From positions 1,995,530 through 2,059,529 of the forward strand of contig MU004238.1 of assembly GCA_010405405.1 (NCBI GenBank): 64,000 bases of DNA, read 5' to 3'. The DNA comes from Microthyrium microscopicum (Eukaryota). Each line of letters begins with the position of its first letter. The first letter of the stretch is position 1. A program made the position numbers and the translations under genes. Shown one piece after another: positions 21,960-62,993 of the stretch. Below the pieces are notes generated by a model. It was not told the origin of the DNA and did no database searches. It saw only the letters and a list, made by a program, of their open reading frames with translations.

Positions 21960-23276
21960 GCTGTCCTAAAGCTAATTTAGGGGTCCCTTTGGATTGGGTG
22001 AATGCTGCGGCATGGATGCATGATGTTCCTCTTTTATCTCAACCGCATCACGTCCCGCGATCCGAATTAGGACGCTAAGCCGTCCAAGTGTCAATCTGTG
22101 GAACGAAGCACTAGATTTTGTGCGAGAAATCATACAGGATCTGGCCCAGGGTCCTGGATACAAGTCTTTGCCCTGAGACCCGAAAATCTGGTAAAGAACG
22201 GCGACCAATTATGGTCTCCCTGGCCTTGGAAAAGGTCAACTACATGGGTCCACTTTTGAAGTACGATTGTTCATCGAAGCTTTTTTCTTTTTTGCTGCAA
22301 TGTGCATGTACTTATCCCTCCCTTCGAGTAGTTCGTTACTCTAAGCTCCCTCAACTGACACTTATTTGCTAGTTAGATGCGTTGAAGTTTCTTTTTTGAC
22401 CTGTCACTTTTCACTTGTTTGGCCTAGACCACCAATAAGCACACAGACTTGACAGAACACACCTCGAGCCATCGTGCTTGATTGAAAAGCTGCATATCTC
22501 TAATGTTCGAATGAACTGACCCTCATTAGATTGGCTGGGGATCCATTTCATCTTGAGGAGGTCTCCTTATCACCAATTAAGCGGCAGCGATCTACCACCA
22601 CCCAGAGTTTGGCAGTGCTGTGCGACTAGTACGCCAGGATTATGGATATCATCTTGCGTCCCAATACGGCGGACCAGATGGGTTACTGGTCGAGTTTCAC
22701 TGTCGTGTCCCTGAAAATATCAATCTGACGCGCAACTCGTGTCTCTATACTGCCTACCTCTTATATTCAACCGATACCGAAGCCTTTGTTCTCCTACTTA
22801 GTAATGCAGGTCGGTAGTCATCCATGATAGTATTTTGTCCACGTTTATGTCATACTGTGTTTCGATATGAGACTGTGCTACTTATGAATTATGTCTAGCC
22901 CAGATGTCTATAGCTTTGTAGCACCGCAGGAGACATTTCCGGGGATGGGGCAAATCGCATTTCGATCCGGTAGAGGTGCAGCATCTAGAGATTTGTAACG
23001 CATGTATGCATTGGGGTGTGACGTTAGTTTGCGACTACCTGCTTCTGGCAAGCACTTGTTCGTTTACTTTTTCTTTCAATGGTGCAAGTCAACTATTTTG
23101 GCTATAGATCATCAAGTCGAGCCCTCGAAAGGGTCAATAAAAAGCTCGCCTTGTCCCAAAAGACTGTTTCGTTTCCAATGTTTGTAGTGCTTTTGGAAAA
23201 CCTCGTTTATGTATATAAACCAGACGCTTCCCTTTCATTTATCCAACCAATAATCAACTCGTACATTTCAATCAGA

Positions 23277-24240
23277 ATGCCTTCCTATTCAAAAACTGCA
23301 AAAGGAGCTCCCCGCCCATCAGAAGTAGCCAGCGAGATTAAGCGAATTTACCTCCCGTGGGCCAAACAATGGATGCAATCATGTGGTCTAATATCGGGCT
23401 CTGTACTATTTCCTGACTCCAGAGGCATCGCACTGAAAGAACAATCGCCGGACCAAAGGGCACGAACGTATCCAGCTGTCACAGTTCTAGAGGGTGATCC
23501 AGTCGATGTCGCTCTTCACTGGCAAGACGAGATTAACCCCGATGCCGACCAAAGAGATTCTGGAAGTCGGATCCTCGTGGTCAACATGGCCAACGACCGA
23601 AAACCAGGTGGAGACTGGGAATCTGGCACCATCGGCCCAGAAGAATGCTTCGCTAGACGCAGCAACCTCGCCCAACAATTACGGACAGAACTGCATAGCT
23701 GGCGACCAACCAACAGCCACTACCCAATTCCGGCGCGAGGGGGTATCTATACGCTGAATACGAGTATGTTCCCAGCCTGCTGCATGATCAGACGCACAAG
23801 ATAAACACATTTCTAATATCAAACTAGTCGTTTTTCGAGACGGCGCGGACGATTACAAGCCGCGTGATATGCCCAAGTGTCTACCAGTGGTTTCGGTTGC
23901 TCCCGTACGTCGGCCCAAGCTTAATGCGAGTGGTTCCTCCTATACTTTCCAGCAGGAGAGGGAACTTATGTTGGAAAAGATGCGGACGATTTTAAGGATT
24001 GCGGCCCATTGCCAACATCAGGCCATCTGTCTTGGACCATTCGGCACAGGGTCAATGTTTAGGAACCCACCAGCCGAAGTTGCGGAAATGTGGAAGCAAT
24101 TGCTGTTCAATGACTTGGAGTTTAGAGGCCGCTTCCACACGGTCATCTTTGCTATCGATCCAAAACTGTTTAAAGAGGAATATCCCATTTTCAGCGCAGC
24201 ATTTGAGGTTGAGGTTATTTTTCCTTTGGCCAAGTACTAA
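23277..24240 (+). CDS. DUF2263/TIGR02452 microbial-type PARG (macrodomain-like) protein, 2 exons
   Basis: Motifs VVNMANDRKPGGDWESGTIGPEECFARRSNL and ICLGPFGTGSMFRNPP. Intron 23764-23827 joins the two ORFs in frame. Confidence 0.8.
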
Positions 24241-31906: not shown

Positions 31907-33976
31907 ATGCCTGTGACACATGTTGGTCTGACGGTTTCAAATTTGCCGAGTTCTACCAAATTCTATCTGGCGGCTTTGCAGCCGTTGGGATATCGGTATA
32001 TTGGACAATGGGGTCCGCAGATAGGATTTGGTGCTGAGGAGGCAGACTTTTTCTTGACTCAAGAAATGGCAGGGTAAGCTCGCATACTCATTCCAAATTT
32101 CAAACACCTGATCAAGTAGCTAATCATTGTTGTTCATAGTATGAAAGCAGGTGGCGGCCATGTCGCCTTTTCCGCCCCAGATAGAGCGTCTGTTCACGAA
32201 TTCTTTGCCTCCGCCGTAGAAGCTGGCGCCCGCCCACATGGCAAACCAGCTCAGAGATATGATGGTGATCAATGTTTCAACTCCGCAGTCCTCGACTATG
32301 ATGGTAATAGTATAGAGGTTGTCTACCATGAGAGCGAAATGTGTGGCGGAGCTTCGAAACCGCAGAGTCGTGTTTTGAGCTGGAGAGATGATGTTGTTGA
32401 TAGCATAGATGACGCAACAAGTATCATCTCTCAGAGTGCTGCGGGACGAAGTGTAGCCCCAAAAAGTACCGCTGGCCGAAGTACTGTCGCTCATAGTGTG
32501 GCTGGACGAAGTTCAGCAGCGAAAAGCGTCGCTTCTAGAAGTGCTGCTGCAAAGAGTGTCGTGAGTGTCAGAAGTATCCAGTCCGCCGCTTCATCTGCCG
32601 CCCAGCAAGCTCTCGTTCCAGCCACGGCTGCTCCATCAATTGTATCAAGATCGGGCGTCGCATTTCCTATAATCACTCAGCCGCGAGCTCCACCGTTGCC
32701 AGCCCCGACAGAGCTCTCAGCCCAAACAGTCTTGTCGACACTCCACAAAAGCATTACAGGTAATGGAGGAAGCATGGCATCTTCTCTTCTTGGAGACTCG
32801 AGGATTGAGATGTCAACCAAGACTCTTGCTGGTACGCTCCTTGGTGCAGCCGCTGGTGCCGCCGTCGCTTACGCCATGTGCAAGAGCGAAGAAGACAGCG
32901 CCCACTCAGAACGAATCGCTTCGATCGCCGCATCCCAAAAGTCCGCATCAATGATTGAGCCATGGTCATACCCTTCTCCTATCATACCCGGCACTCCATC
33001 TCACACTCCTGCGACTTCACAATACACTTCGGCCTCCAGAAAGACAGGGATGCAAGCGCTAGAAGGCCCTATGATCCCTCTATCAGCATATACAGGACAA
33101 ACAGCGTCCCACGGACGAGCATTCGAATACCTTGCAAGCTCTCCCAAGAGCCAATATCTTGGATCTTCACCGCAAAGTCAATACCTAGGTACTTCGCCTG
33201 GCAGCCGCGTCTCCGCCGCCCGCTCAGCACGCCGACCGTCCGTAACAATAGAAGATTACGAAGAGCTTGACCTTGAGCCTAAACGTCCTTCTTCTCATCT
33301 CTCACGAGCGCACACCACCCCGGCAGTTTCCTCACGCTCCAGCTCTCGCGTCCCATCCAAAGCCTCCTCCAAGGCAGCTTCCATCGCCGCTTCTCAATCT
33401 ACTGCCCGCCCAACACCATCCCGCGCTGCCTCTCATACACCATCCAAACAATCCTCTCAAACCGCCGCTGAAAGCCACCACTCACCCAGCACCACCAGCC
33501 GGCCACGCAGCGAGTCAAGCAAACATACCAGCACTTCCAAGAAGAGCACCCGCAGCGGCAGCAGTAGTAAAGCGTCAAAACCGAAGTCCGGCCACCATCT
33601 TGACGTCGTCCACGAGCGCAGCTGGTCGCCTCCTGCCGACTATACTATTTTTGCGGCAGATGAGGACGATGAGAGCATAGTTCCCAGTGACAGTATCTCC
33701 AATGTTGGTTCGACAAAGCGGAGTAAGACGAGTAAGCGCAGCAAGAGCAGTAAGAGCTCTTCGTCGACCAAGGGCAGTAGTAAACATTCGGAGAAGGGTA
33801 GTAGGGCGACTAGTCGGAAGAGTGAGTCGGTGAAAGAGGCGCCCAGTGAGGCGCCCCGTGCAGAGACGGTGACACAGAAGAGGTCGAAGGAGCGGTCGCA
33901 TGTTAGTCTGCCGTTGAGAGGGATGACGCCTATGGGCAGGGTTGATGGGCGTACGATTGCTAGTTATGCTGGTTGA
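31907..33976 (+). CDS. VOC/glyoxalase-domain protein with long Ser/Ala/Lys-rich disordered tail, 2 exons
   Basis: Motifs THVGLTVSNL..FYLAALQPLGY, HVAFSAPDRASVHEFF and VLDYDGNSIEVV. Intron 32074-32139. Confidence 0.85.
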
Positions 33977-34111: not shown

Positions 34112-35611
34112 CTAGTCTTTGAATTTGGCTCTGAGTGCATCGATCTCTCGCTGAAATGCATCCATATCCGCGAGCACATCACGAGATGACGCTGGCGGTG
34201 CATTCGGGCCGGTGTGGTCGCTTGGTGTCATTTCTAGTCGTGATTCTTCCTTGATAGACCCTTCCAGTTGAGATGTAGGTACTCTGCGTAGGCTGTCCAG
34301 ACTGGGCCTTGGCATTTCAGCACTGGTTCTGCGGGAATGCGGTCCAGAGCCCGAAGTTGTCCTCTGGCTAAGCTCTATGCTGTTTCTACTTGACCTTCTT
34401 CGAGCGGGCGGAGGTGGAGGAGATGTGAGAGAAGCTTGGGAGGAAGACCGCATTCTTCCAGGAATGATCTGAATACTGCGAGCCTCTATGCTTCTCTCGC
34501 TGGTGCTGTCGTTGGGTGAGAATAGGGGGTTAGATGTTTGGGTATTCCCACTACCAGATCGCCGCGAAGGTGGAGGTGGAGGAAGTGGTTTCTGAGACGG
34601 ATCGCTGCCATCAGATATGCTAGGAGGGTGGGAACTTTGTTGTTCCTCGTGCTGGGAGGAAGCTGTATTTGCCCGCGAACGTTTTGTCACGGTTGAACGC
34701 CTTGCGAGCGGAGGCGGAGGCGCCATCTTTTTGACATCACCCATTTCTGACGGGGGTGTGCTGGTCGATAAGGGCTCGTCCGGCAGACTTTGCTGCTCAA
34801 TCACCTTGGAGGTTGGGCCAACCAATTCCTCTTTCGTACCTGAAGGAATTCTGACTGGAGGTTCAAGCATATCAGTACTACGCGGATTGCTCGTCAACGA
34901 TGGATCACTTGGAGCAAAGTCATCAAAAGCCACAACTTGAGGTCCTTTGACTGGGAGTGTTTTGCCATGGCGAGACTTTGGTGGTGGGGGAGGAGGCACT
35001 TTGTGCTTTTCATGGATATCACTATCAGATCGGTCTCGGCTACGGATTTCTGGGGTTGAGCGACTGTCTTGGGCGATATGTTCCCGATATGGCTCATTGA
35101 AGGTTCCTTCTTTCAGAGGCTCAAATGCCTTGAATGGAGTCGAAACGTTGGGTCCTTTAATTGGATTTTGTTGTGTTGTAGCATTATCTTCTGGGCTTTT
35201 GGGCGCTCCTTTCATCAGCAAGGAGGTAAAGGAGCCAACATCCATCGAAGCTCGGGAGCGAGCAGGAAAAGACGTAGACTCATTGTCTTTTTTGGTTCCA
35301 GCCTCTGGGAAACTGTCGACAGAAGGTTTTTCAACTTGGCTCGATTGATCGAAATGAGACGACCGAAACGGGTTTCCTGCAGTTGCCAACATCGTGAAGT
35401 CCGGATCCGCACGATTTAGGGTCTCAATACCAAAGTTGGGCGCGTCGGTTACTGGAGCCTGAGGCGCGATTCGAACTTTCTTGATATTTGCTTTTTCAAT
35501 AGAAGTCGCATTCTCTCGCGTCAGTCCAGTATCATCACGCGTAGAGGCTTCCGCGGTATTAGGCACCTCCCCTGGAGAGGTCGAGGGATTGGTTTTGAAG
35601 GGGTTACTCAT
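34112..35611 (-). CDS. Proline-rich hypothetical protein with C-terminal helix
   Basis: 499-aa intronless ORF with NPF motifs, several PPPPPxR tracts and a C-terminal DVLADMDAFQREIDALR. Confidence 0.75.
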   Translation of the reverse strand: MSNPFKTNPSTSPGEVPNTAEASTRDDTGLTRENATSIEKANIKKVRIAPQAPVTDAPNFGIETLNRADPDFTMLATAGNPFRSSHFDQSSQVEKPSVDSFPEAGTKKDNESTSFPARSRASMDVGSFTSLLMKGAPKSPEDNATTQQNPIKGPNVSTPFKAFEPLKEGTFNEPYREHIAQDSRSTPEIRSRDRSDSDIHEKHKVPPPPPPKSRHGKTLPVKGPQVVAFDDFAPSDPSLTSNPRSTDMLEPPVRIPSGTKEELVGPTSKVIEQQSLPDEPLSTSTPPSEMGDVKKMAPPPPLARRSTVTKRSRANTASSQHEEQQSSHPPSISDGSDPSQKPLPPPPPSRRSGSGNTQTSNPLFSPNDSTSERSIEARSIQIIPGRMRSSSQASLTSPPPPPARRRSSRNSIELSQRTTSGSGPHSRRTSAEMPRPSLDSLRRVPTSQLEGSIKEESRLEMTPSDHTGPNAPPASSRDVLADMDAFQREIDALRAKFKD

Positions 35612-36831
35612 GGCGGCGTCGTGTTTAAAGTGGCCTCAGAACAACATTTGGCATGGAGTTGAAACAAGAGACTTGCTTGACTGGACAAGCTCATTGAAGC
35701 ATCCTCTTGGATTGCTGGGGCTAATCTATCATACTTCGAGATTTCATGAGAGCAAGAAAGGGTTGCGGCAAAGCACGGAAATGATCTGCAAGGGCCTACA
35801 TACAGGGACATATTAACCGGGCTCCTTTGCTTCCTGCTCTGCTCCCATTGATTGCTTCCTTTCCTTCCAAAACCGACCCGTCTGGATCATTTATTTTCTG
35901 TGATACACCAGACAGACTCAACTTGTCCCATTGCCCTGCTCGGGTGCACAAATCGCGATTTCTGGTCGTAATCAATGGAGATGGGAGTTGAAGAGAGTGC
36001 CACAAAGAAGAGGTCCGCTAATATGTCCCCTCACTACGCTTTTCTTTCCGCCTGCTTATCAGCTTCACCTTTTTCTGGATCGGAGGTAGGGATCATTGAC
36101 CTGATTGTATTATGCGGTATTCCTATCGTGGTCGAGACTGTTCCTAATTGTTCAAAAGAGAGAGTACGTCAGGGAGATATCGCCCTTTGTGGTTGGCGTA
36201 GTTACTCCTAGAAAGTAGAAACTGACTCAAAAACCATCAGAACGGAAATAAGGAGCAGGAAAATCAAGGAACAAAAGGACATCTTGCCGTAACTATGGCC
36301 AGATTCTTTCGATTGATTTTCTGCAGGCATTCTGCAATTGTAAGATGATAGTGAATGAAGCACAGTCATCATTGTGTTGTCAATCACCACCCGACAATAT
36401 GCTGAACGGTGATACTTATCTTGAACAAAGAAAAGGATCTGTTGAATGAGTTTTCATATATCATTGCTACATAGAAAAAGCGGTGATTTCCCGACAGCAG
36501 TGAGTGATTCATAGTCATCGGAATCACTCTATTCCGTTGAAGCAGTCGCCCATGGCACATCGGCTGAGGTCAATCGGAGCATCTTGTGTTTACGATAAGA
36601 CAATCATACCACAGTTGTTATGATAAAAATGATGAAAATGTTTCCGATTCGTCCCCATATACGAAATGCGATGGGAGTTATTCATAGCCGGCAGTGATCA
36701 AGTACCTAGGTTAGGTATATAAACAGCTTAGAACTCTCAGTTGGTAAAATTGTTACTGTATCATTCCTAGTGATTTCGAGCCCTTTATTCTCACAACTAC
36801 AATATAATTCTAAAGCTACAAGCTAACAACA

Positions 36832-37467
36832 ATGGCACAGAGGTGCATTAAATGGGTGTACACTTGGGAGGACTGTGGTTGCGTGAAATACAAGTTCCAT
36901 GATGGCCATAATGACGAAATCTGCGATCCCAATCAGATGGTGGAAGAGCCTCGACAGCATACAGGCATGTGTAGGGACTGCGGTAGAGGTCTTCACTGCA
37001 AAAGTCATGACTGCAAGAACGATGAAGACAATGACAGCCAGAATGACGGTAGAAGTAACCGTAATAAAGGCAACTACAGCAAAGCTAGCCGCAGCAAACG
37101 ATATAACCACAACACTCACGGCAAGGGTAATCACTACAGGGGCAATCATGAGAAACGCAGACGCGAAAAGCACGTGAGCTTCCCAACGATGCCGCGTCTG
37201 CCTGGATATGGGCACGAATATCCATCTGGTTTACCCTCAGGATATGCGAACTATACGATACCTGAAAGGTTCTTTCAACACCAACCAGTATACAAAGCCT
37301 GCCCAAGTCCAGAAAGCGCGAACATTGTGGGACCTGGAGATTGTTATCAGCAGCCTGCAGTTCCTAGAACCTGGTCACCATTGCGTTATGCAGTGCCTCA
37401 GAATAATGCGATACCTGCAGATTGCTTCCAGCAGCCCGCGGTCTCTAAACCTTGGGGACATCATTGA
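36832..37467 (+). CDS. Cys-array member 1 (211 aa, Cys domain plus low-complexity tail)
   Basis: C-x9-CGC-x8-H-x4-C-x15-CRDC. TATATAAA at 36716. Confidence 0.7.
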   Translation: MAQRCIKWVYTWEDCGCVKYKFHDGHNDEICDPNQMVEEPRQHTGMCRDCGRGLHCKSHDCKNDEDNDSQNDGRSNRNKGNYSKASRSKRYNHNTHGKGNHYRGNHEKRRREKHVSFPTMPRLPGYGHEYPSGLPSGYANYTIPERFFQHQPVYKACPSPESANIVGPGDCYQQPAVPRTWSPLRYAVPQNNAIPADCFQQPAVSKPWGHH

Positions 37468-37601
37468 CTCCTAATGGTGGGTTCAAGTCTGCTTATGGAT
37501 TCTAGGAACAAGGACTTGGATGCATATAAAGACAAGCTTTGGCAAAAGTTTTCTTACTAGCAATAGGTACCTAGATTATAATAAATTCATATCCCCTTAG
37601 A

Positions 37602-37790
37602 ATGTGCGATCAAACTAAAAAGTCGTGAATTGACTGCGGCTGAAAGAAGGAAGAAACAAGACCTTGCATAGATGCGTCAGCTTCAGGAAGACTCTGTCCT
37701 TATGATGAAAGAATACACACTCACTGGAGAATCCCAGGAGTCTGCGGAACGCGTTGGTGTCGGCAGAGAGGTAAGTACCTAGTGATATAG
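37602..37790 (+). pseudogene. Cys-array member 2, interrupted by two in-frame TGA codons
   Basis: Manual translation MCDQTKKS*IDCG*KKEETRPCIDASASGRLCPYDERIHTHWRIPGVCGTRWCRQRGKYLVI* shows the family spacing. TATAAA at 37525. Confidence 0.7.
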
Positions 37791-38036
37791 AAGAAAATGC
37801 TTAAGCGAGCTAGACAGTCATCGAAAACTACAGAAATATAAAGCCAAGATCTGTATATATCCTCAATTTGACCTCGCTGTCGGTCTGAAATCATATATCC
37901 ATATATCTTCAACAAATTGGGGCCTCGTCAATTGTCCATCCCATCATTATCTCACCACCATATCTACAGCCCCGTGTTATATAATCAACTCATCAAACAA
38001 GCAACAGTTCAGCCTGAAAGCCTCTCCAACTTCAAG

Positions 38037-38315
38037 ATGTGCGTAGGAAGATTCATCTTGTGCAAAAACTGCGACCATGTCAGATGGCAAGTACTCCACT
38101 CGCACTGTGAGAAAGCCAGGGAGACAGGGAAAGAATGCCACCGTGCTGAAATGTCCATTGTCTACGATTTGCAGGATGTATGCCGCAAGTGCCGCTATAC
38201 GGAAACGATCACTGTCGACGATACAGAAGATCTCTGTCCTGAATGCGAATGTAAAGGCGGCGCTTGCCGGTGTGATTATACGATGAAGCCTACGGTCTGC
38301 GACAAGGCAAAATAA
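38037..38315 (+). CDS. Cys-array member 3 (92 aa)
   Basis: MC-x9-CDH-x9-C-x9-C-x14-CRKC plus an extra Cys-rich tail. TATATAA at 37978 and a purine at -3 of the ATG. Confidence 0.75.
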   Translation: MCVGRFILCKNCDHVRWQVLHSHCEKARETGKECHRAEMSIVYDLQDVCRKCRYTETITVDDTEDLCPECECKGGACRCDYTMKPTVCDKAK

Positions 38316-38875
38316 TCGGGTATGCCATGCTCAAAAGACAAGTAGTGTGTTCCTGTCCAGAGATGGGAAATTGCCCTTCTATAAAGGGAAGGAAGGAGTT
38401 TAGATAGAGGAGAAATAGTTTCTGAATTGGAAAGTACAAAGTAGTGGATGGAGACTATTGGCGTATATTACCATGTTGTAGAAGTCATTTTGGCATTCCT
38501 TCTTTACCGGGTTACTTCAGCGGCACCTTTAGTATATAATTGAGGTACATTAGCACCTCATCTCTTCATCGGCTCCACTGCGCAGCTCAAAATGATAGGT
38601 AGTATTGAGGTGGGCTTCCGCCTCTATGCTTCCTTTGTGATTCCGAACCAGGCTGCTGTGACCGCTTGGATACCTTAGGTGAATGTCAAGGCCACAATAA
38701 TGAGTTTTTGCGTCATTAAGTGGTTCATCTGCTACTCGAAATCTGAACCTTCTACTCACACCATCTCCCTACTCCCAACCCAACCGCAATCAACACGCAA
38801 GCAAAACCAGCGATTCATCACCTTACGACACAACAATCGCTTACAAAACAATATCAAGCGCTCACAGAACTCATC

Positions 38876-39331
38876 ATGTGTCGAAAACTTGAGTATTCGT
38901 ACAAATGCGGCTGTCCAGCAGAAAAGCTTGTCCGCTGCAAGTGGGGACTAGAAGTCCCAGAGACTACTCCCGGCGAACCTCAAGCTTGGTGTCCAAAGTT
39001 TGAGGGCCCGCCACGCGAGCTCATTATTCCAAATCGCTCCTATCCGTGCGAATTTTGCGAGGCAAAGCAGAAGGTCTCAAATGGATACCTCAGCATGCTG
39101 AACCCAACGTCATGGTTCCAAGCCAATCGCTACAACAAGGCAATGGCTAAGAAAGATTCCAAAGAAGAGGTAAGAGATGCCGATAATCTATTCGTTATGG
39201 CTCGAGCTGATATATATAGGAATTCGACATTGTGGAAGCCGGAAGGGAGAGCGATGGCGCTCAGTGACTGCGAGGTGGTCAGCGAACGAGATGTTATAGT
39301 GGCCTCAAAAGTTCAATGCTATAATCGATGA
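38876..39331 (+). CDS. Cys-array member 4 (151 aa)
   Basis: MC-x8-CGC-x7-C-x17-C-x18-CEFC, preceded by an A/C-rich leader. Confidence 0.75.
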   Translation: MCRKLEYSYKCGCPAEKLVRCKWGLEVPETTPGEPQAWCPKFEGPPRELIIPNRSYPCEFCEAKQKVSNGYLSMLNPTSWFQANRYNKAMAKKDSKEEVRDADNLFVMARADIYRNSTLWKPEGRAMALSDCEVVSERDVIVASKVQCYNR

Positions 39332-39723
39332 ACACTTACCTATTTTCTCTAAGCCGCGAGCTTATTAGCTTTCAATACTGTAGTTTTAGTTCGCTGCAGT
39401 GACCTAATTGCCTCCGAATTGTAGCCAACATAGTTGGCATTCTCCCACTAACAAGTGATGACTTTCAATACTTCACCGTGTAAACGGGATTTGATCTCCC
39501 ATCGCTGTCAATAAGATAAGAAAATATGCGCCAGTCGCCAAGCATAGGTGGTGAATGGCAGATTTTGCATTGAGAATATAGGCCATTCACTCTGGTTATC
39601 CGCTTGCCCCTTATAAAAGCAAGATATCTAGCGCGCATCTTTCATGAACACATTAGACATCAAAACCACTTCTTGCAGTAGCAGAAAACTTACCCGATCA
39701 TTCACAAGCAAGCCAGTAACATA

Positions 39724-39993
39724 ATGTGTGAGATCACCCATATAAGATGGCAGTGTGGCCATAAGACGACCGACACAAAGGCCTGCAGAAAAGGCGGTAC
39801 GCAGGCAGCCAGAAGCAATGGTCGGATCATAATTCAATGTGAAGGAGAAGGGACGTTTACGACCTGGAAACGTAGAACGCGACGATGCGGCGAGTGCGCA
39901 AAAGGTGAAGGCATATTTATACACGTAAAAGATTGGCTTGAGGAGAAAATCGAAAGTCACTCGCTCAGAAAAGAAGCCCAGACAAACTTTTAG
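39724..39993 (+). CDS. Cys-array member 5 (89 aa)
   Basis: MC-x8-CGH-x7-C-x17-C-x15-CGEC. TATAAAAG at 39612. Confidence 0.75.
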   Translation: MCEITHIRWQCGHKTTDTKACRKGGTQAARSNGRIIIQCEGEGTFTTWKRRTRRCGECAKGEGIFIHVKDWLEEKIESHSLRKEAQTNF

Positions 39994-40213
39994 ATCTGTT
40001 TTCTCAAATAGTCTCAGTAACGAATCACTCAATTGCAATATCAGATACCTCTAAATTGCAATGATTGTGCTTTGTCGCTTGACACTAAGATCTGATGACT
40101 GACAGAATTCAAGCATAAAAGCGGAGTGCCACTGATAAAGATATTATAGCATCAAACATCCACATCAACATTCAGAACCACTCCGAAAGATTGCAAAAGC
40201 AGGCGAAAATACG

Positions 40214-40495
40214 ATGTGCGAGCACGGGTCTTTCGAGTATGATGAGTGCGCACATAGCATAGCTTATTACGTCTTTCCTTGCGATGGCTTTAAGGAAGAG
40301 CTGCCAGATCCAGTTACCCGGAAACAAGAATTTCGTTGCCTGATGGACAATATCACGGTATCAAAACATAGAAAGAAAGGGTTATGTGCCGATTGTAAGG
40401 ACGACAAAAGAAAGGAGTCACTGCAAGCCAGATTGAAAGACGAAACAAATTGCGTTGATAGTTCAAGCTCAGCTTCAGAAAAAGTGGAAAGATGA
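40214..40495 (+). CDS. Cys-array member 6 (93 aa)
   Basis: MC-x9-CAH-x8-C-x18-C-x15-CADC. CATAAAAG at 40114. Confidence 0.75.
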   Translation: MCEHGSFEYDECAHSIAYYVFPCDGFKEELPDPVTRKQEFRCLMDNITVSKHRKKGLCADCKDDKRKESLQARLKDETNCVDSSSSASEKVER

Positions 40496-41057
40496 AGTGA
40501 GTTTATGAATTCACAGGCGGAGTGGTCGTGGTACTGTAGCACATGAAAGTGAACCAGTTGAATGATAACTGATAGGGAAACTAACTGGCGTACTTTCAGC
40601 GATTTCGATGGCTCCCACACATATGCTCTAGTACCGAATGCGCCTAATACCATCAAAGGCGTTCAGACTGGCACGGTTGATTGAATGCGATGGATAATAT
40701 AGCACCCCTTGTTTAGTAGCATTCGTGGGAGCAATTGAAGTTGATTGGGACTCACCACTATTTTGTCTATAGGCTGGAATGACTGACTGACGATACAATT
40801 CCAATAAGCATTCACACAATGACTGAACAATAAGGAGGCTCTATCACCATCCACAAGCTTTCTCCAATCTCCACCATACAGATATCTTCAATATTGAAAT
40901 CTAAGCAGCGTAGATAACATTGGCTGATTCTCATACACTCTTCAAAGAGATATAAAAGCAGCTCTTCCTACATTCTCCTCTTCCAATTCGTTTCAAAACC
41001 ACCATACGAGCAAACCCCAAACTAAAAGCAAACCGCCAAACTGATATCTCATCCACA

Positions 41058-41387
41058 ATGTGTCAAACTGCGGTCTGGAAATTCACCGCTTGCGGCTGCG
41101 AAAAGAACGAATCGATCGAATGCAAAAAGAGCATTGAAAGCAAGACACGTTGCACCAAAAATGTTGTCCATACCACCTGGGAGGCCCCTCTGAAGTGCGT
41201 TGACTGCCGAATCAAAGAAAGAGATGCTAGACTTGAAGCGAGTCAACCGTATGTCAAGCTGTATGAAGTACGCAACAGCAGTGATCCTTCAGATGAGGAA
41301 AAACAAGCAATAGCTCAGGAGGCATCGGATAGGTGGCACATATACTCTACGCACATGCTTGGTATCAACCCAGCAGATCTGTATTAA
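41058..41387 (+). CDS. Cys-array member 7 (109 aa)
   Basis: MC-x9-CGC-x7-C-x9-C-x14-CVDC. TATAAAAG at 40951. Confidence 0.75.
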   Translation: MCQTAVWKFTACGCEKNESIECKKSIESKTRCTKNVVHTTWEAPLKCVDCRIKERDARLEASQPYVKLYEVRNSSDPSDEEKQAIAQEASDRWHIYSTHMLGINPADLY

Positions 41388-42190: not shown

Positions 42191-43234
42191 TAAAATGGGA
42201 TCGAATATTATGATCGACATTTCCGTTCCGTTGGAATCCCCCTCTTTTACCTAGCTGCGTAAACTGGTAGCCAGCAAGTAAATGGAAGTATGCCAGTTGT
42301 TTTGCCGACCGGCGATGAAAAAAAACGCAGTGACCAAAGTGGCCGCAAAGGGCTGGAACAAAATGATAGGAATCGTCGATTGTTTAAGCTTCGTCTCTGC
42401 TTCCATGTAAACTGGTCTCTGTAGTTGCAACAGTAGACGCATATTTGAGAAGTCGGCAGCTTCGTAGACGACGCCTCGGATCCCGTTTCAGCAGCACAAC
42501 ATCGGACAACGACTATCGTGAAGTCCTAAAAAAGTATGAATCAGGCAAAGGTACCTCATGAGATCTTACATAAGAATAAGCACCATCAGGACTCGGATGT
42601 AGTGCACTCGTTCTAGCCACAGTAACACGCAAGTGCCAGTACGCTTTCTTCAGAAGTTTTTTCTCCTGAAGTTCTGATCAGTGATGGAAGTCTTCCGATG
42701 TTTTCAGGAGCTTCCAAGATGATGAGCACGAAGACAGCCTTGACAGCCAAGCGGCTTAGTTGTGCTTGGGGCGATGTGTACCTTTACCTCGGAGTAGAAT
42801 GGTCCCTTGCGTTGTGCTTTGCAGATGAGTGGTTGGTTACCGGTATAGGCTGCATATTCAGGGTGTATGGTGCATATTCCCAGGGCTCGACCAACTTATT
42901 TGTGGTTCTTTTACACATGCCTTCCATGCCCCATCCAGATTCGGGAACCATTTCTTGTTTTTATACATTACCACATCTGCCTGGCCTGATTCTAGAAAAC
43001 AGAATCAAATCTTCTCTACTCCTCTTGGCACTCGTTTCTACATACCGGCTCGATGATCTATTTTATATCAGCATAGTGGCCAAACCCCTCATCGCTTGTC
43101 TCCATCTGGATATCAGTCAACTCACGCGACCACCCCACTACACTTCCATTCATTCGCTACAATACTCTACTCTATCACCGCCACCATAAGCCATCCGCCA
43201 TACATTCGCAACAAATACCAGCGGCATCACCACA

Positions 43235-44056
43235 ATGCCAACATCCACGACAACAACTCTAGTCCCACGCGCTGACACCATCTCCCTCCGCTCCTCCGTC
43301 CCCTCCTCCCGACCACCCTCCTACGGCCGCCACCTTCACGATGAACTTGTCTCCCGCACCTCCCTCTCCGCCCCCCGCAACCGCAACTCTCACGCCTCTC
43401 ACATCACCGCCATGCTACTTCTGCTCACCAGTCCAGCGCCTCTCACGCTGACCATCGACAACAACCTGCTATACCCGCCACCTCCGTCCACCGCGCTCTA
43501 CCATCTACCGCGCCTGCTAACATGGAGTGGCAACGAAATCTCCCTCGCGCGCAGTATGCCTGCGGCCCGCAGACCTGGACAAATTCGTGATCTCGCACTC
43601 TATACTTTGCGCCGCACGCCGTTCACGCACGAAGTCGCACTACTGCCGCGGCGCGAAGGTCTCAAGCCCGCAACGATGCGCGGTCGACGGGGTGTATTCG
43701 GCGGGATGCGATGGGACGTAGAGATCCGCGGCGAACCTCTTCTCAGATATCGTAAAGGTGCGTGGCGACTAGCGAAGGGCGGGATGGTGGTCGCGACAGA
43801 GAAAGTTCAGCGGGAGGCGAAACGGCCGGGCGTGTTGCTGGAGGAGGACAATGATAGCGCGGAGGAGGTTGTGGAGAGAGAGGAAATCACGATTGCGGGT
43901 GAGGGTATTGAGCTGTGGATGAAAGATTTGTTGGTGGCGAGTTGGTGTGCGAAGGTTTGGATGGCGAATGCAAAGAGTGGGATGGCGAGGACGTTTATTC
44001 GTGGGCAGAGGTGGAAGAAGAGTGATTTTACGTATCGATTTCAGATTGTTCGATGA
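43235..44056 (+). CDS. Hypothetical protein (273 aa)
   Basis: Intronless ORF with good start context and coding-like composition. C-terminal DLLVASWCAKVW. No family recognised with confidence. Confidence 0.7.
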   Translation: MPTSTTTTLVPRADTISLRSSVPSSRPPSYGRHLHDELVSRTSLSAPRNRNSHASHITAMLLLLTSPAPLTLTIDNNLLYPPPPSTALYHLPRLLTWSGNEISLARSMPAARRPGQIRDLALYTLRRTPFTHEVALLPRREGLKPATMRGRRGVFGGMRWDVEIRGEPLLRYRKGAWRLAKGGMVVATEKVQREAKRPGVLLEEDNDSAEEVVEREEITIAGEGIELWMKDLLVASWCAKVWMANAKSGMARTFIRGQRWKKSDFTYRFQIVR

Positions 44057-58668: not shown

Positions 58669-60340
58669 ATGGAATTCGAATTCCTGCCTACCGAAATCAA
58701 GCACATGATCTTTGTGCAGGCTGCTGAATCTCGAGGTCTGAAGCGCGCCCTCAGACTGAGACTGGTCTGCAGTACGTGATAAATCTTCGCTCTATCCACC
58801 CCCAGGATGTTTTTGAAAAGGCTGACATCGTACCAGAAACTTGGGCAAACCAAGTCTCAACCGCTATAGCTAATAGCAATTTACTCCGCGAGACCCTTAG
58901 CGAATTATCACTACAACCTGCTCCTCATTGGGACTTCGAGAATATTGGCAGTCCAGGTGCTAAGCCATTGCTAACACAGTATCTCTGCCACCTGGTGAAC
59001 AAATCGAGAGCCACGAAGGGCGCCACGAAAAGTATTCGTCAGACTTTAGATAGGCTCTGTCTCAGGGCAAACGTGGACCAAGATGACATTGTAGGTTACC
59101 TTCCAGCAGATGGTGGGCATTATTGCAAATCGTGCGGCAACGGGAGTCTTCATACCCATTTCTGACTCTCTCATCCTAGGCAACGCGTCGAATCTATCTG
59201 GAGGCACTCTGCGAAGCTTGTGTCTCAGATGACTTCGATTTGAACCCTGTGGAAAAAACAATGCGGATTGTGGATGTGTTTCTCGGCACCAGCGAGCTTC
59301 ACGAGACCGACTTACAGAAGGACTGTAACGTCATTATCGCCGCTGCTCATTGCAACCTGCCCTCTATTGTCAAGGAAATGGCTCAGTCAACGTTCGGCCA
59401 ACTCAATCGCCTACCTTATAGCCACATTTTCGGACCGGCATACTCCACTGCAGCCAAAAAGGCGTATACTCAAGTTTTGGACGCTCTTTTCGATGGCATG
59501 AAATACTTGAATGATGATCCACCATCGCCACGAGGAGATGTTCTTCACTGGCATGGATCGGGGCGAAGATTGTCTTCTCCCACTGCTCTCGAATTGGACT
59601 TGGATTGTACTATGCGTTTGGCAGCACACGCTGGCAACTTCGATTTGGTTCGAACCTTACTGACAAATCGGTGGTCTCTGGCCGTCCCAGACGATGCTAA
59701 ACACTTCGACGATGGCCATGCTACTCGTCTCGCATTTGAGACGCCGAACGTGGAGCTTTTCTGCTGGAACGAAAAATTCTTCATTTCTGAGACTAAGCCT
59801 CCTCAAGAACGGTTATGTCAAGAAGAGATCCCATGGCAGAAAGGACACACTCTACATCTGGCTCTTGTCAATAACTGGGTTGCAATGGCGTGCTTCCTCA
59901 TTGAGAGTGGCGTTGCTCCTCTCCCATGCCAAATATACCCTGCATGGCTGAAGGCTTGCAGAGCTGGCCACAAAGAACTGGCCCAGGTCCTCCTGAAATC
60001 TTGTTCTGTGGGTCAACCTGTCCGCGGTCGCAGACGTTGCGCAGCGGGTAAAGCATTAACACCATTGGAGAGAGCAGCTGCTGGCGGTCATTTTGACATT
60101 GTTCAAATGTTAGTCGAAAAGAAGGACTTTCTGAAACTAGACGTGAACAATGGAACCACGCCGCCACTTCACTTCGCAGTTGAGCTCGAGCATGTTCGAA
60201 TGGTCCGATATCTTCTAGACCATGGAGCCAACTTTGACGACTTAGATGTAACACCTAAGCTGGTGGCACGACTGAAAGAGCAAGGCTTGACATCGATGTT
60301 AGACTTGTTGGTTCAAGAAGGGGTCGAAGTGAGCTTGTAG
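58669..60340 (+). CDS. F-box-like plus ankyrin-repeat protein, copy 1 (3 exons)
   Basis: Starts MEFEFLPTEIKHMIF..RGLKRALRLRLVC. Introns 58772-58836 and 59091-59179. Ankyrin repeats TPLERAAAGGHFDIVQMLVE and PLHFAVELEHVRMVRYLLDHGAN. Confidence 0.85.
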
Positions 60341-61261: not shown

Positions 61262-62993
61262 ATGGACTTCGAACACTTACCGCCCGAAATTAAGGAGATG
61301 ATCTTCATCCAGGCTGTCGACGTGCGTGGCCTGAAGCGTGGACTGAGGTTAAAGCTTGTTTGCAGTAAGTCGAAGTCTTTCCAGACGATCCTCGCACACA
61401 TGTCAAAGTATCTCAAAGCATTAACATCACATAGAAGCTTGGGCGCCGCAAATCTCGATGGCAATAGTGAAGACCGATATGCTTGTCGACATTCTCGTTG
61501 AAGCATTTCCTGTCAGTTGGGGGCAAAAGTCCCTTCAATCAAAGACGATCTGGGTGGATGGTAGCATCCCGCTTATCGCTGGCAGGTTAGTCGGGGACTA
61601 TTTATGCCGCGTCGTGTCCGATCTTCGAGTGAAGCGACCAGGCGTGAAAATCATCCGCCAGATCCTGGATATGCTCTGCTTGAAGGCCAATGTGAGCCGC
61701 GATGACTCGGTAAGAACATTCCATATAACGGCAGAAGAGCCTTCTGTTAGCCATCAACATTTACGATGACGCTACCGGCTGTTTACTGAAGTTTGAGCTT
61801 ACAACGTGTAGGAGACTCGACGAACATATCTGAACGCGATCATCCACTCTATTTTCCCCGCGGATACCGGTTCAGAAGAAGCAATTCGTACCATGACAGT
61901 TTTAAACGCACTCCTGAATCCTCAAAGTAGCATTCGCGAGCCCACAGCTTCAGAATACGAGTGTCACGTTTTGGTTGCCGCCTCACATTGCAACCTTCCA
62001 TCCGTTGTGAAAGACATGGCCAAAACAGTATTTCCTCGACTTAAAGGTGCGCCCAAGAGCTCCATCCTAGGCTCGGCCGTCTGCTTGGCCGCTGAGAATG
62101 GGTACACACAAGTATTGGAAGTCATTTTTGATTCCATGGAATATATCAAATCCGATCTAGCTTCTGAGGCACCGCACAGAACCTCGCCTCGTTTGTCATC
62201 GCAAAAGAAACATTTAGAGCAGCTAAAGGCGCCAGTTAGCTCCGTCATAACAATTGCTGCACTGATCGGCAACGCAAAACTAGCTCAGCAATTGCTGACA
62301 GAGCGCTGGGATGTGATAGTCCCAGACCCCAAAGAAAGCGTGGAAGACACAATGGATATGCTGATAGGGTTTGCTACTCCAAACGTGGAACTCCATCGCT
62401 GGATCGAAGATTTCCGAAAACTTGTATCGTACCCGGCTCGAAAGTTGGGCAAACTCGACCGTCAAAAAGTTGTAAACATGTATCAGCGAGATGCGCTCGA
62501 AAGAAACTGGGTGGCCATGGCGCGATATCTTTTTGAAAACGATCCCGCATCTGCCTCACCGGACTATGGCATAGCGCAGATATGGCTCAATGCATGCAGA
62601 GCTGGCCACAAAGATATGGTGAAGTTGATCACCCAGTACTGTCCTGTAAGTGGCCGCACACGACTCGCGAAGGACAGAACCATGCAAGGCATAGAGAGGG
62701 CAGCAGCAGGCGGTCATCTCGACATTGTGCAAATGCTCGTTGAGAATACGAAGGACCTAGACCTCAACGAAGGAGACATACCACCGCTTCACCGCGCTTT
62801 CGAGTTGGAGCATGTTCGAATGATTCGGTACCTCTTGGATCACGGAGCCAATTTTGAAGATCCAGTCAAAACGATTCAATTGGTTTCAAGGCTCAAGAGT
62901 CAAGGCTTAACATCGATGTTGGACCTGTTGGCTGAAGAGGGAGTGGATATGGTTAATGTGAGTGGCTCCAGCGCAAACTGTCTCGCTGTCTGA
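61262..62993 (+). CDS. F-box-like plus ankyrin-repeat protein, copy 2 (3 exons)
   Basis: Starts MDFEHLPPEIKEMIF..RGLKRGLRLKLVC. Introns 61365-61434 and 61710-61811 sit at the same positions as in copy 1. Similar C-terminal ankyrin block. Confidence 0.85.

What the first reader, a model, noticed from the sequence alone, without database searches (positions are those of the whole stretch)
36700..41387. Tandem array of seven diverged, non-secreted Met-Cys/CxxC microprotein genes
Seen in sequence: six intact intronless + strand ORFs and one disrupted copy sit head to tail within 4.6 kb. Each has a TATA-like box upstream (36716, 37525, 37978, 38533, 39612, 40114, 40951). The intact copies keep the seven-ligand scaffold C-x8-9-C-x-[C/H]-x7-9-[C/H]-x4-18-C-x14-18-CxxC, usually with an aromatic residue 2-3 positions before the second Cys. 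The remaining residues and the C-terminal tails look unrelated, and there are no signal peptides. Inference: an intracellular Zn-binding scaffold that was amplified and diversified, as seen in recognition, conflict or stage-specific regulatory arrays. I recall similar MC..CGH..CxxC fungal hypothetical proteins but know no named function or described array.
Basis: partly seen in the sequence, partly recalled or inferred. Interest (0 to 1): 0.85.

Follow-up and report, generated by a model that had tools for sequence, protein, structure and literature searches.

The report
Unannotated fungal cysteine-scaffold microprotein gene array
A fungal chromosome carries seven head-to-tail small genes (six intact, one dead) that share only a fixed set of seven cysteine/histidine positions, probably a metal-binding core; they match no described family and five of the six intact ones are missing from public protein sets.

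Summary
Six + strand ORFs (36832, 38037, 38876, 39724, 40214, 41058) and one dead copy (37602, two in-frame TGA) carry the scaffold [M]C-x8-9-C-x-[C/H]-x7-9-[C/H]-x4-18-C-x14-18-CxxC. The pattern hits six places in all six frames of the 64 kb, all in the array; shuffles give 0.005.

Gene-like anatomy: A at -3 in 7 of 7 starts, a TATAWA box 59-116 nt upstream in 5 of 7, and spliced RNA-type contigs over copy 4. These show a 50-nt intron, so that copy is not intronless; its product is 113 aa, not 151.

Outside the ligands the copies are no more alike than chance. No copy finds another by phmmer, and leave-one-out HMMs fail. There is no Pfam or NCBIfam family, no PDB sequence or fold match, and no relative among 1.84 billion representatives. 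Only copy 1 is in public protein sets.

AlphaFold gives a beta-hairpin with the CxC/H turn, a third strand and CxxC at a helix start.

Best reading: an old, birth-and-death array of cytoplasmic metal (probably zinc)-stabilised microproteins with freely varying surfaces and tails. Metal binding and function are untested.

The parts
36716..36723 (+). TATA-like box of copy 1 (TATATAAA), 116 nt before the ATG
36832..37467 (+). Copy 1: 211-aa ORF. Scaffold C5-x9-C15-x-C17-x8-H26-x4-C31-x15-C47xxC50, starting MAQRC rather than MC. Long low-complexity tail with an internal 55-nt repeat. The only copy present in public protein sets.
37525..37530 (+). TATA-like box of copy 2, 77 nt before the ATG
37602..37787 (+). 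Copy 2, pseudogene. It starts MC and keeps the spacing C2-x9-C12-x-(stop14)-x7-C22-x9-C32-x15-C48-x4-C53. In-frame TGA at codons 9 and 14. Codon 9 is the place where 5 of 6 intact copies have an aromatic residue; codon 14 is the third ligand.
   Evidence: Its fragment 37644-37787 is the best non-training hit in 3 of 6 leave-one-out HMM runs (E 0.031, 0.056, 0.21).
37978..37985 (+). TATA-like box of copy 3, 59 nt before the ATG
38037..38315 (+). Copy 3: 92 aa. C2-x9-C12-x-H14-x9-C24-x9-C34-x14-C49xxC52. The tail holds six more Cys (13 Cys in all).
38533..38539 (+). Nearest TATA-like box upstream of copy 4 (343 nt before the ATG)
38876..39169 (+). Copy 4, exon 1 (98 codons): C2-x8-C11-x-C13-x7-C21-x17-C39-x18-C58xxC61
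   Evidence: (X5 contigs 38679-39127 and 39106-39167)
39170..39219 (+). Copy 4 intron: 50 nt, GTAAGA...TATAG, skipped in a contig of run X5 but present in the colinear DNA contig of run X1
39220..39267 (+). Copy 4, exon 2 (15 codons plus stop). The spliced product is 113 aa.
39612..39619 (+). TATA-like box of copy 5 (TATAAAAG), 112 nt before the ATG
39724..39993 (+). Copy 5: 89 aa. C2-x8-C11-x-H13-x7-C21-x17-C39-x15-C55xxC58. Basic domain (net +8).
40114..40121 (+). CATAAAAG, a weaker TATA-like site, 100 nt before the copy 6 ATG
40214..40495 (+). Copy 6: 93 aa. C2-x9-C12-x-H14-x8-C23-x18-C42-x15-C58xxC61. Acidic domain (net -4).
40951..40958 (+). TATA-like box of copy 7 (TATAAAAG), 107 nt before the ATG
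41058..41387 (+). Copy 7: 109 aa. C2-x9-C12-x-C14-x7-C22-x9-C32-x14-C47xxC50, with a predicted helical-hairpin tail. An X5 contig covers 40907-41187.

Best explanation
This is a real birth-and-death tandem array of seven small nuclear genes in a filamentous ascomycete-type chromosome. Six copies are intact and one is a pseudogene.

Each gene encodes a cytoplasmic or nuclear microprotein. Its N-terminal 50-64 residues form a small metal-stabilised domain, most likely binding zinc. The predicted layout is a beta-hairpin with a C-x-[C/H] knuckle at its tip, a variable loop carrying two more Cys, a further strand, and a CxxC at the start of a helix.

Inferred, not shown: the knuckle pair and the CxxC pair form one tetrahedral site of treble-clef type. 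The three remaining Cys (position 2, the one after strand 2, and the one before the last strand) form a second, incomplete or bridged site.

Selection has kept only the ORFs and the seven ligands. Surfaces, charge and C-terminal tails have drifted or diversified to chance-level identity. The metal core therefore serves as a minimal fold-holder, and each paralog would present a different surface and tail to a different partner. That last functional step is inference.

Shown: the array, the scaffold, its non-random nature, gene-like signals, splicing of copy 4, and the absence of any known family. Inferred: common descent, metal binding, intracellular location, and a partner-binding role.
For: Scaffold: 6 of 6 regex hits in the window lie in the array, against 0.005 expected. 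A loose regex gives 6 in the array, 0 elsewhere and 0 in 100 shuffles, and 0 of 137 other ORFs combine the three features.

Ligands: all 42 ligand places of the six intact copies hold Cys or His. His occurs only at ligand 3 (c3, c5, c6) and ligand 4 (c1). Both TGT and TGC are used at equivalent places. Non-ligand identity is 1-5 of 42-56 aligned residues. This means ORFs and ligands were kept through saturating divergence.

Gene signals: A at -3 in 7 of 7 starts, where A frequency is 0.314. TATAWA lies 59-116 nt upstream in 5 of 7 copies, against 0.42 sites per kb in the window.

Transcription: X5 contigs cover 38679-39316 with a GT..AG joint that is absent from the colinear DNA contig, and also cover 40907-41187.

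Fold: the c7 model has mean pLDDT 81.8, and all five models lie at 75-82. Strands are at 2-9, 14-20 and 36-43, and a helix starts at 48, at the CxxC (47-50). The best c5 model (pLDDT 73) has the same order of elements.

No secretion signal. No DNA repeats or transposon features. No RIP-type dinucleotide bias.

Lead only: the ESM Atlas's nearest clusters are Ascomycota hypothetical proteins of 82-113 aa with no Pfam family, at 0.92/0.90/0.89.
Against: - Homology is not demonstrable by standard statistics. No copy hits another at E<=10 among 1303 window ORFs. In 6 of 6 leave-one-out HMM runs the left-out copy is not recovered significantly (best: c7, E 0.32).
- The regexes were fitted post hoc.
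- Codon-usage log-odds are weak. The reading frame is the best of six frames for c1 (marginally), c4, c6 and c7 but not for c3 or c5. All values (-0.14 to +0.07) lie below the eight reference genes (0.10-0.28).
- RNA-type contigs cover only c4 and part of c7, at low depth (3.7-8.6). The c7 contig starts 44 nt upstream of its TATA box.
- Four of the five c5 models have pLDDT 35-57. Both models used the same six-row alignment, so their agreement is not independent.
- No model coordinates were available, so ligand clustering was not checked.
- No solved fold matches the domain.
- The profile search of 1.84 billion representatives returned no relative: 5 hits at E<=0.001, of which 1 is c1 itself and 4 are repetitive unrelated proteins. 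c1 is a singleton.
- The Atlas recognition scores (2158 and 2015) are below the 2300 mark.
- Seven ligands are one short of two ordinary tetrahedral sites. c4 has no His at all.
Confidence: 0.55

Rival explanations
1. Metal-buffering or detoxifying proteins of metallothionein type. The selected function is metal binding itself, which is why only the ligands are conserved, and the array arose under selection for metal tolerance.
For: Only the Cys/His positions are conserved. Domain charge varies from -4 to +8, so no common surface is kept. The c3 tail adds a Cys-dense stretch, giving 13 Cys in 92 aa. Recalled: metallothionein genes often sit in tandem arrays, such as yeast CUP1 and animal MT clusters.
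Against: Cys density in the domain is only 6-8 in the first 64 residues, far below the roughly 30% recalled for metallothioneins. Aromatic residues and predicted regular beta/alpha structure are present. The copies are hyperdiverged rather than recently amplified identical units. No metal-responsive data exist.
Confidence: 0.15
2. Mostly non-functional: low-level transcribed ORFs or decaying relics of an old duplication, with the scaffold kept by history rather than selection.
For: Weak codon-usage signal. Only c1 is annotated. No relatives were found. One copy is already dead. RNA-type contigs are of low depth and partial.
Against: With non-ligand identity at chance level, neutral decay would have destroyed the ORFs and ligands. 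Yet 42 of 42 ligand places and six ORFs of 89-211 codons persist, each with A at -3 and most with a TATA box. c4 is spliced.
Confidence: 0.08
3. Disulfide-rich peptides exported without a classical signal peptide (unconventional effectors, toxins or antimicrobial peptides), or substrates of the mitochondrial intermembrane-space disulfide relay (twin Cx9C type).
For: The proteins are small, Cys-patterned, hypervariable and in tandem, as in many effector families (recalled). c3 and c7 have two C-x9-C spacings each.
Against: No signal-peptide-like N-terminus. The Cys count is odd (7), with His replacing Cys at two ligand places, which fits metal ligation better than disulfides. c4, c5 and c6 lack the second C-x9-C. 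The predicted segments are strands, not the helix-turn-helix of CHCH domains.
Confidence: 0.07
4. Domesticated or decayed fragments of a zinc-finger module from a transposable element or a larger gene.
For: Recalled: Cys-rich CxC-type modules are common in fungal transposon proteins.
Against: No Pfam match at E<=10 for 5 of 6 copies. The only row is Zn_ribbon_IS1595 at E 3.7, 8 bits against a cut-off of 25.4. There are no terminal or dispersed DNA repeats in the array beyond short chance-level matches, no transposase ORF nearby, and each copy has its own promoter-like signals.
Confidence: 0.03

Closest known systems
Treble-clef / zinc-ribbon type structural zinc fingers, in particular fingers with a C-x-C knuckle plus a CxxC pair such as the CSL finger of DPH3/Kti11 (pattern recalled, not fetched)
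   Same: A two-residue knuckle at a beta-hairpin tip, preceded by aromatic strand residues. A CxxC lies at the N-terminus of a helix. Domain size is about 55-65 aa.
   Different: The two pairs are 32-44 residues apart, and three additional conserved Cys are present. No Pfam hit, zf-CSL included, at E<=10. No fold match: Foldseek best E 0.38-0.95, and VIA Z<=3.5 for the domain model.
Metallothionein gene arrays (for example yeast CUP1 and animal MT clusters; recalled)
   Same: Tandem small genes in which only the metal ligands are conserved.
   Different: Much lower Cys density, aromatic residues, predicted regular secondary structure, and ancient hyperdiverged copies instead of near-identical amplicons.
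C-terminal structural-zinc/dimerisation domain of Fur-family regulators (Zur 4mtd, Fur 9ire, PerR 2rgv)
   Same: A small sheet plus helix tied together by Cys pairs. These are the top Foldseek rows for the c7 model, and one VIA row for the c5 model (9ire_B, Z 2.0).
   Different: The scores are not significant (E 0.38-1.9, TM 0.24-0.26). There is no DNA-binding domain and no sequence similarity.
Small fungal zinc-binding proteins such as the Ecl1 and Stc1 families (recalled)
   Same: Short, non-secreted fungal proteins with an N-terminal Cys-ligand module and a variable or disordered tail.
   Different: Their ligand patterns are built from CxxC pairs. No match to any Pfam model, these included, was returned.

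Membership tests
Any Pfam-A or NCBIfam family | Score at or above the curated cut-off of a family model | tested here: not met
   Pfam: 0 families at E<=10 for 5 of 6 copies. c5 has one row (PF12760, E 3.7, 8 bits against a cut-off of 25.4). NCBIfam: 0 for 5 of 6. c7 has one row at E 0.064, 12.7 bits against a cut-off of 243.
Treble-clef / zinc-ribbon structural zinc finger | Two ligand pairs, one on a knuckle at a hairpin tip and one at a helix N-terminus (or a second knuckle), clustering around one metal | tested here: inconclusive
   The DSSP strings of both models place C-x-[C/H] between strands 1 and 2 and CxxC at the start of a helix. No coordinates were available to measure ligand distances. 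No metal was modelled.
Treble-clef / zinc-ribbon structural zinc finger | Fold match to a solved member | tested here: inconclusive
   Foldseek: no match at E<=0.001 for either model. VIA wide: best Z 3.5 for the c5 domain model. For c7 all rows at Z 5.5-6.5 lie mainly on the helical tail 46-104.
Metallothionein | Very high Cys content in CC/CxC/CxxC clusters, few or no aromatic residues, no regular secondary structure without metal | tested here: not met
   6-8 Cys in the first 64 residues. An aromatic residue precedes the second Cys in 5 of 6 copies. Strands and helices are predicted.
Twin Cx9C (CHCH) mitochondrial intermembrane-space proteins | Two C-x9-C motifs on an antiparallel helix pair | tested here: not met
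   Two C-x9-C spacings occur only in c3 and c7 (and in dead c2). c4, c5 and c6 have x8/x17, x8/x17 and x9/x18. The segments are predicted as strands.
Classically secreted Cys-rich effectors or defensin-like peptides | N-terminal signal peptide with a hydrophobic core; even number of Cys in disulfides | tested here: not met
   The longest hydrophobic run in the first 35 aa is 4 or less, and the maximum 9-residue hydropathy is 1.92 or less. Seven ligands, with Cys/His exchange. No dedicated predictor was run.
Transposon-derived zinc-finger fragment | Similarity to a transposase finger, or flanking terminal repeats | tested here: not met
   no such model, repeats or transposase ORF.

The most novel reading that the evidence does not exclude
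The seven-ligand module is a new metal-binding fold. Seven ligands are exactly what a binuclear Zn2 centre with one bridging thiolate needs. On this reading the module defines a large, mostly unannotated 'dark' family of ascomycete microproteins. Arrays like this one would be diversifying libraries of intracellular binding modules used in self/non-self, antiviral or developmental-stage recognition.
Probability: 0.15. Interest if true: 0.75.

Novelty: new variant of a known kind. Interest (0 to 1): 0.5.

Why it matters
If the scaffold binds metal as inferred, it would be an undescribed small metal-binding domain, and gene callers largely miss its genes. In this case 5 of 6 intact copies are absent from a 15-billion-protein collection.

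It would also be a clean natural example of how little sequence a fold needs. Seven ligands and a start codon are conserved, while everything else is at chance-level identity.

The case also shows that profile searches cannot retrieve such families. Finding them takes pattern-plus-context scans of raw fungal DNA. That bears on the open question of how much of the fungal microproteome is hidden.

Function is unknown, so the present value is as a well-defined target for deletion, metal analysis and structure work.

Tried and rejected
- Own genome: none is held for this window.
- The search for homologous proteins with c7: no candidate. With c1: only itself among 28 candidates.
- Profile search of 1.84 billion representatives with the MAFFT alignment A2. 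That alignment misplaces the third and fourth ligands of c3 and c6. Result: 5 hits, none a relative.
- PDB profile search: 4 rows at E 0.011-0.1 (PRDM9 C2H2 knuckles, RPB9), judged to be CxxC noise.
- ESM Atlas restricted to named clusters: no usable hit.
- Fold searches: see the membership rows. Nothing usable for the domain.
- Homodimer test of c7 with four Zn: no verdict, score 0.00. The tool did not use the alignment.
- Sequencing runs: no RNA holder is listed on record. Run X5 is only guessed to be RNA. No X5 contig lies over c1, c2, c3, c5 or c6, which is no evidence on their expression.
- Metagenome scan with c4 exon 1: 72 pattern matches, 0 confirmed.
- Metagenome scan with the upstream neighbour (32141-33976): 4 loci (L001-L004). 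Two are short contigs and two match only residues 15-60. No scaffold pattern in any of them, and they are too short or too distant to test synteny.
- DNA alignment of c2 with c7: no convincing similarity.
- Bacterial promoter/terminator scan: not applicable to a fungus.
- RIP as the cause of divergence: the indices (TpA/ApT 0.75; (CpA+TpG)/(ApC+GpT) 1.38) resemble the flanks and fall outside the recalled RIP thresholds.
- Earlier findings of this scan: nothing for this genome, this sequence or the first word set. The second word set returned only prokaryote and phage arrays.
- Literature: seven full-text searches. I saw only the listings and abstract starts, and none describes this scaffold or such an array. 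I opened no paper.

Full report
WHAT IS THERE. The window is from a filamentous-fungus-type nuclear genome. Neighbouring ORFs carry mitochondrial IF2, AAA ATPase, mitochondrial carrier, class II tRNA synthetase, SYS1, CLPTM1, DUF3684/sacsin-like and ankyrin domains.

Between 36700 and 41400 the + strand holds six ATG ORFs: c1 36832-37467, c3 38037-38315, c4 38876-39331, c5 39724-39993, c6 40214-40495 and c7 41058-41387. It also holds one disrupted copy, c2 from 37602. c2 starts with Met-Cys, keeps the spacing of c7 and c3, and has in-frame TGA at codons 9 and 14 and CxxxxC in place of CxxC. Start-to-start distances are 435-848 nt.

IS IT MORE THAN CHANCE. All six are these ORFs. Shuffled windows give a mean of 0.005 hits, with 1 of 200 showing any hit. 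A deliberately loose pattern again gives six hits in the array, none elsewhere and none in 100 shuffles. None of the 137 other ATG ORFs of 60 aa or more combines an MC start, CxC/H at residues 11-14 and CxxC at residues 45-64. The patterns were written after seeing the copies, so these numbers flatter the case. The clustering, common strand and common position at the very N-terminus do not depend on that choice.

GENE-LIKE ANATOMY. All seven starts have A at -3, against an A frequency of 0.314 in the region. TATAWA occurs 27 times on the + strand of the window. Five of the seven copies have one 59-116 nt upstream of the ATG, c4 has one at -343, and c6 has CATAAAAG at -100.

Run X5 is coded as 'RNA?'. 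It holds contigs with GT..AG joints that the colinear DNA contig of run X1 lacks, so it contains spliced cDNA. Its contigs cover c4 (38679-39127 and 39106-39316) and skip 39170-39219. Another contig covers 40907-41187, over the start of c7. The 50-nt intron shifts the frame, so c4 encodes 113 aa rather than 151. This corrects 'intronless' for that copy. The c7 contig begins 44 nt upstream of the TATA box and is of low depth, so it is weaker evidence. No X5 contig lies on the other copies, which says nothing about their expression.

Codon usage is only weak support. Log-odds against eight long neighbouring ORFs are -0.14 to +0.07 in the reading frame, against 0.10-0.28 for the references. For c3 and c5 another frame scores higher.

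HOW ALIKE ARE THE COPIES. They are alike only at the ligands. phmmer with each copy against 1303 stop-to-stop ORFs of the window finds only the query itself at E<=10. In an alignment anchored on the ligands, identity at non-ligand positions is 1-5 of 42-56 residues. HMMs built from five copies do not recover the sixth; the best result is c7 at E 0.32. The dead c2 fragment is the best non-training hit in 3 of 6 such runs (E 0.031, 0.056, 0.21). There is no DNA-level repeat between the units and no RIP-like dinucleotide bias.

Common descent therefore rests on the scaffold plus the arrangement, not on alignment statistics. All 42 ligand places in the six intact copies hold Cys or His. His occurs only at ligand 3 (c3, c5, c6) and ligand 4 (c1). 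TGT and TGC are mixed at equivalent places. Six ORFs of 89-211 codons have survived divergence that erased everything else. This is the main argument for purifying selection on the ligands and the reading frames.

KNOWN FAMILIES AND RELATIVES. Pfam-A gives nothing at E<=10 for five copies and one meaningless row for c5. NCBIfam gives nothing useful. A profile of the six N-terminal segments against 1.84 billion representative proteins returns five hits at E<=0.001. One is c1 itself and four are repetitive, unrelated proteins. The MAFFT alignment used for that profile misplaces two ligands of c3 and c6. A 64-position profile of such diverged rows can hardly reach significance in that library, so this does not show that the family is confined to one genome.

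Exact look-up shows that only c1 is in the 15-billion-protein collection, as a one-member cluster on one 2.18-Mb contig. c3-c7 are absent. The ESM Atlas places c5 nearest to clusters of Ascomycota hypothetical proteins of 82-113 aa without Pfam families (0.92, 0.90, 0.89; 207, 192 and 197 of 256 features). Its recognition score is below the tool's mark, so this is a lead only. The PDB profile search gives only CxxC-knuckle noise.

STRUCTURE. AlphaFold2 on c7 (six-row alignment) gives mean pLDDT 81.8, with all five models at 75-82. Strands are at 2-9, 14-20 and 36-43, and helices at 48-61, 63-72 and 79-99. The loop 21-35, which holds two ligands, is of low confidence. The c5 domain gives pLDDT 73 for the best model, but the other four are at 35-57. 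It has strands at 2-8, 14-19, 26-31, 34-39 and 44-50 and a helix at 56-61.

In both models the C-x-[C/H] pair sits in the turn between strands 1 and 2, and the CxxC opens a helix. That is the ligand geometry I recall for treble-clef fingers. I could not inspect coordinates, and the two models share one alignment. Fold searches found nothing for the domain: Foldseek best E is 0.95 for c5 and 0.38 for c7, the latter to Zur/Fur/PerR C-terminal zinc domains at TM 0.24-0.26. VIA best Z is 3.5 for c5. The Z 5.5-6.5 rows for c7 lie mainly on its helical-hairpin tail.

Domain net charge runs from -4 to +8, and the tails are unrelated. No common nucleic-acid-binding surface is indicated.

CONTEXT. The array sits in an ordinary housekeeping neighbourhood, between a Pro/Ser-rich disordered protein gene (34112-35611, - strand) with a small spliced gene (35848-36609), and a strongly covered transcript from about 41488 onward. 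There are no secondary-metabolite, transposon or NLR-type genes in the window.

MECHANISM. Best reading (0.55): these are metal-stabilised, probably zinc-stabilised, intracellular microproteins. The seven ligands hold a minimal fold, while the exposed residues and tails are free to change. The array evolves by duplication, divergence and loss, with c2 as a loss.

The knuckle and the CxxC would form one four-ligand site. The other three Cys would form a second site completed by a non-conserved residue or solvent, or share a bridging thiolate with the first. The idea that each paralog binds a different partner is inference from the pattern of conservation only.

Rivals are metal buffering of metallothionein type (0.15), mostly non-functional relics (0.08), unconventionally exported or intermembrane-space disulfide proteins (0.07), and transposon-finger fragments (0.03). 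Their evidence is set out in the Rival explanations section.

NOVELTY. Seven full-text literature searches gave no paper that describes this scaffold or such an array. I saw only listings and abstract starts. I rate it a new variant of a known kind: small Cys/His metal-scaffold proteins in a diverged tandem array. Function and metal binding remain untested, so interest is moderate.

Noticed in passing
window 35848-36609 (+): X5 contig of a small spliced transcript just upstream of the array, with a 77-nt GT..AG intron at 36164-36240. The ATG at 35975 opens an exon of 63 codons. The protein is not Cys-patterned and has no family assigned.
   Followed up: partly
window 38684-38951 (+): The X5 contig over copy 4 starts at 38679, 197 nt before the ATG. 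The leader holds two upstream ATGs: 38684 (a 5-codon uORF) and 38700 (an 83-codon ORF in another frame that overlaps the c4 start). This suggests a long leader with possible uORF control, or a start site further downstream than the contig suggests.
   Followed up: no
window 39644-39727 (+): An upstream ATG 32 nt after the copy 5 TATA box opens a 26-codon ORF whose TAA overlaps the c5 ATG (TAATG). Whether it lies inside the transcript is unknown.
   Followed up: no
window 37320-37455 (+): The copy 1 tail contains a 55-nt direct repeat (71% identity, 81 nt apart) encoding two similar Pro/Gln-rich peptide units, each with a Cys.
   Followed up: no
window 40578-40618 and 43209-43242: Short stretches (41 and 34 nt) also match other contigs of runs X1 and X5 with 4-5 differences and unlike flanks. 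They are small dispersed repeats.
   Followed up: no
window 59261-60340 and 61893-62993 (+): Two neighbouring ORFs of 359 and 366 aa both carry C-terminal ankyrin repeats at similar positions. They are possibly tandem paralogs.
   Followed up: no
window 23079-23804 (+): ORF with a microbial-type poly(ADP-ribose) glycohydrolase catalytic domain (PF10021, E 4.3e-10).
   Followed up: no
window 37771-37795 (+): Directly after the scaffold of dead copy 2 lies GTAAGT...TAG, an intron-donor-like sequence. It resembles the position of the copy 4 intron after the domain.
   Followed up: no
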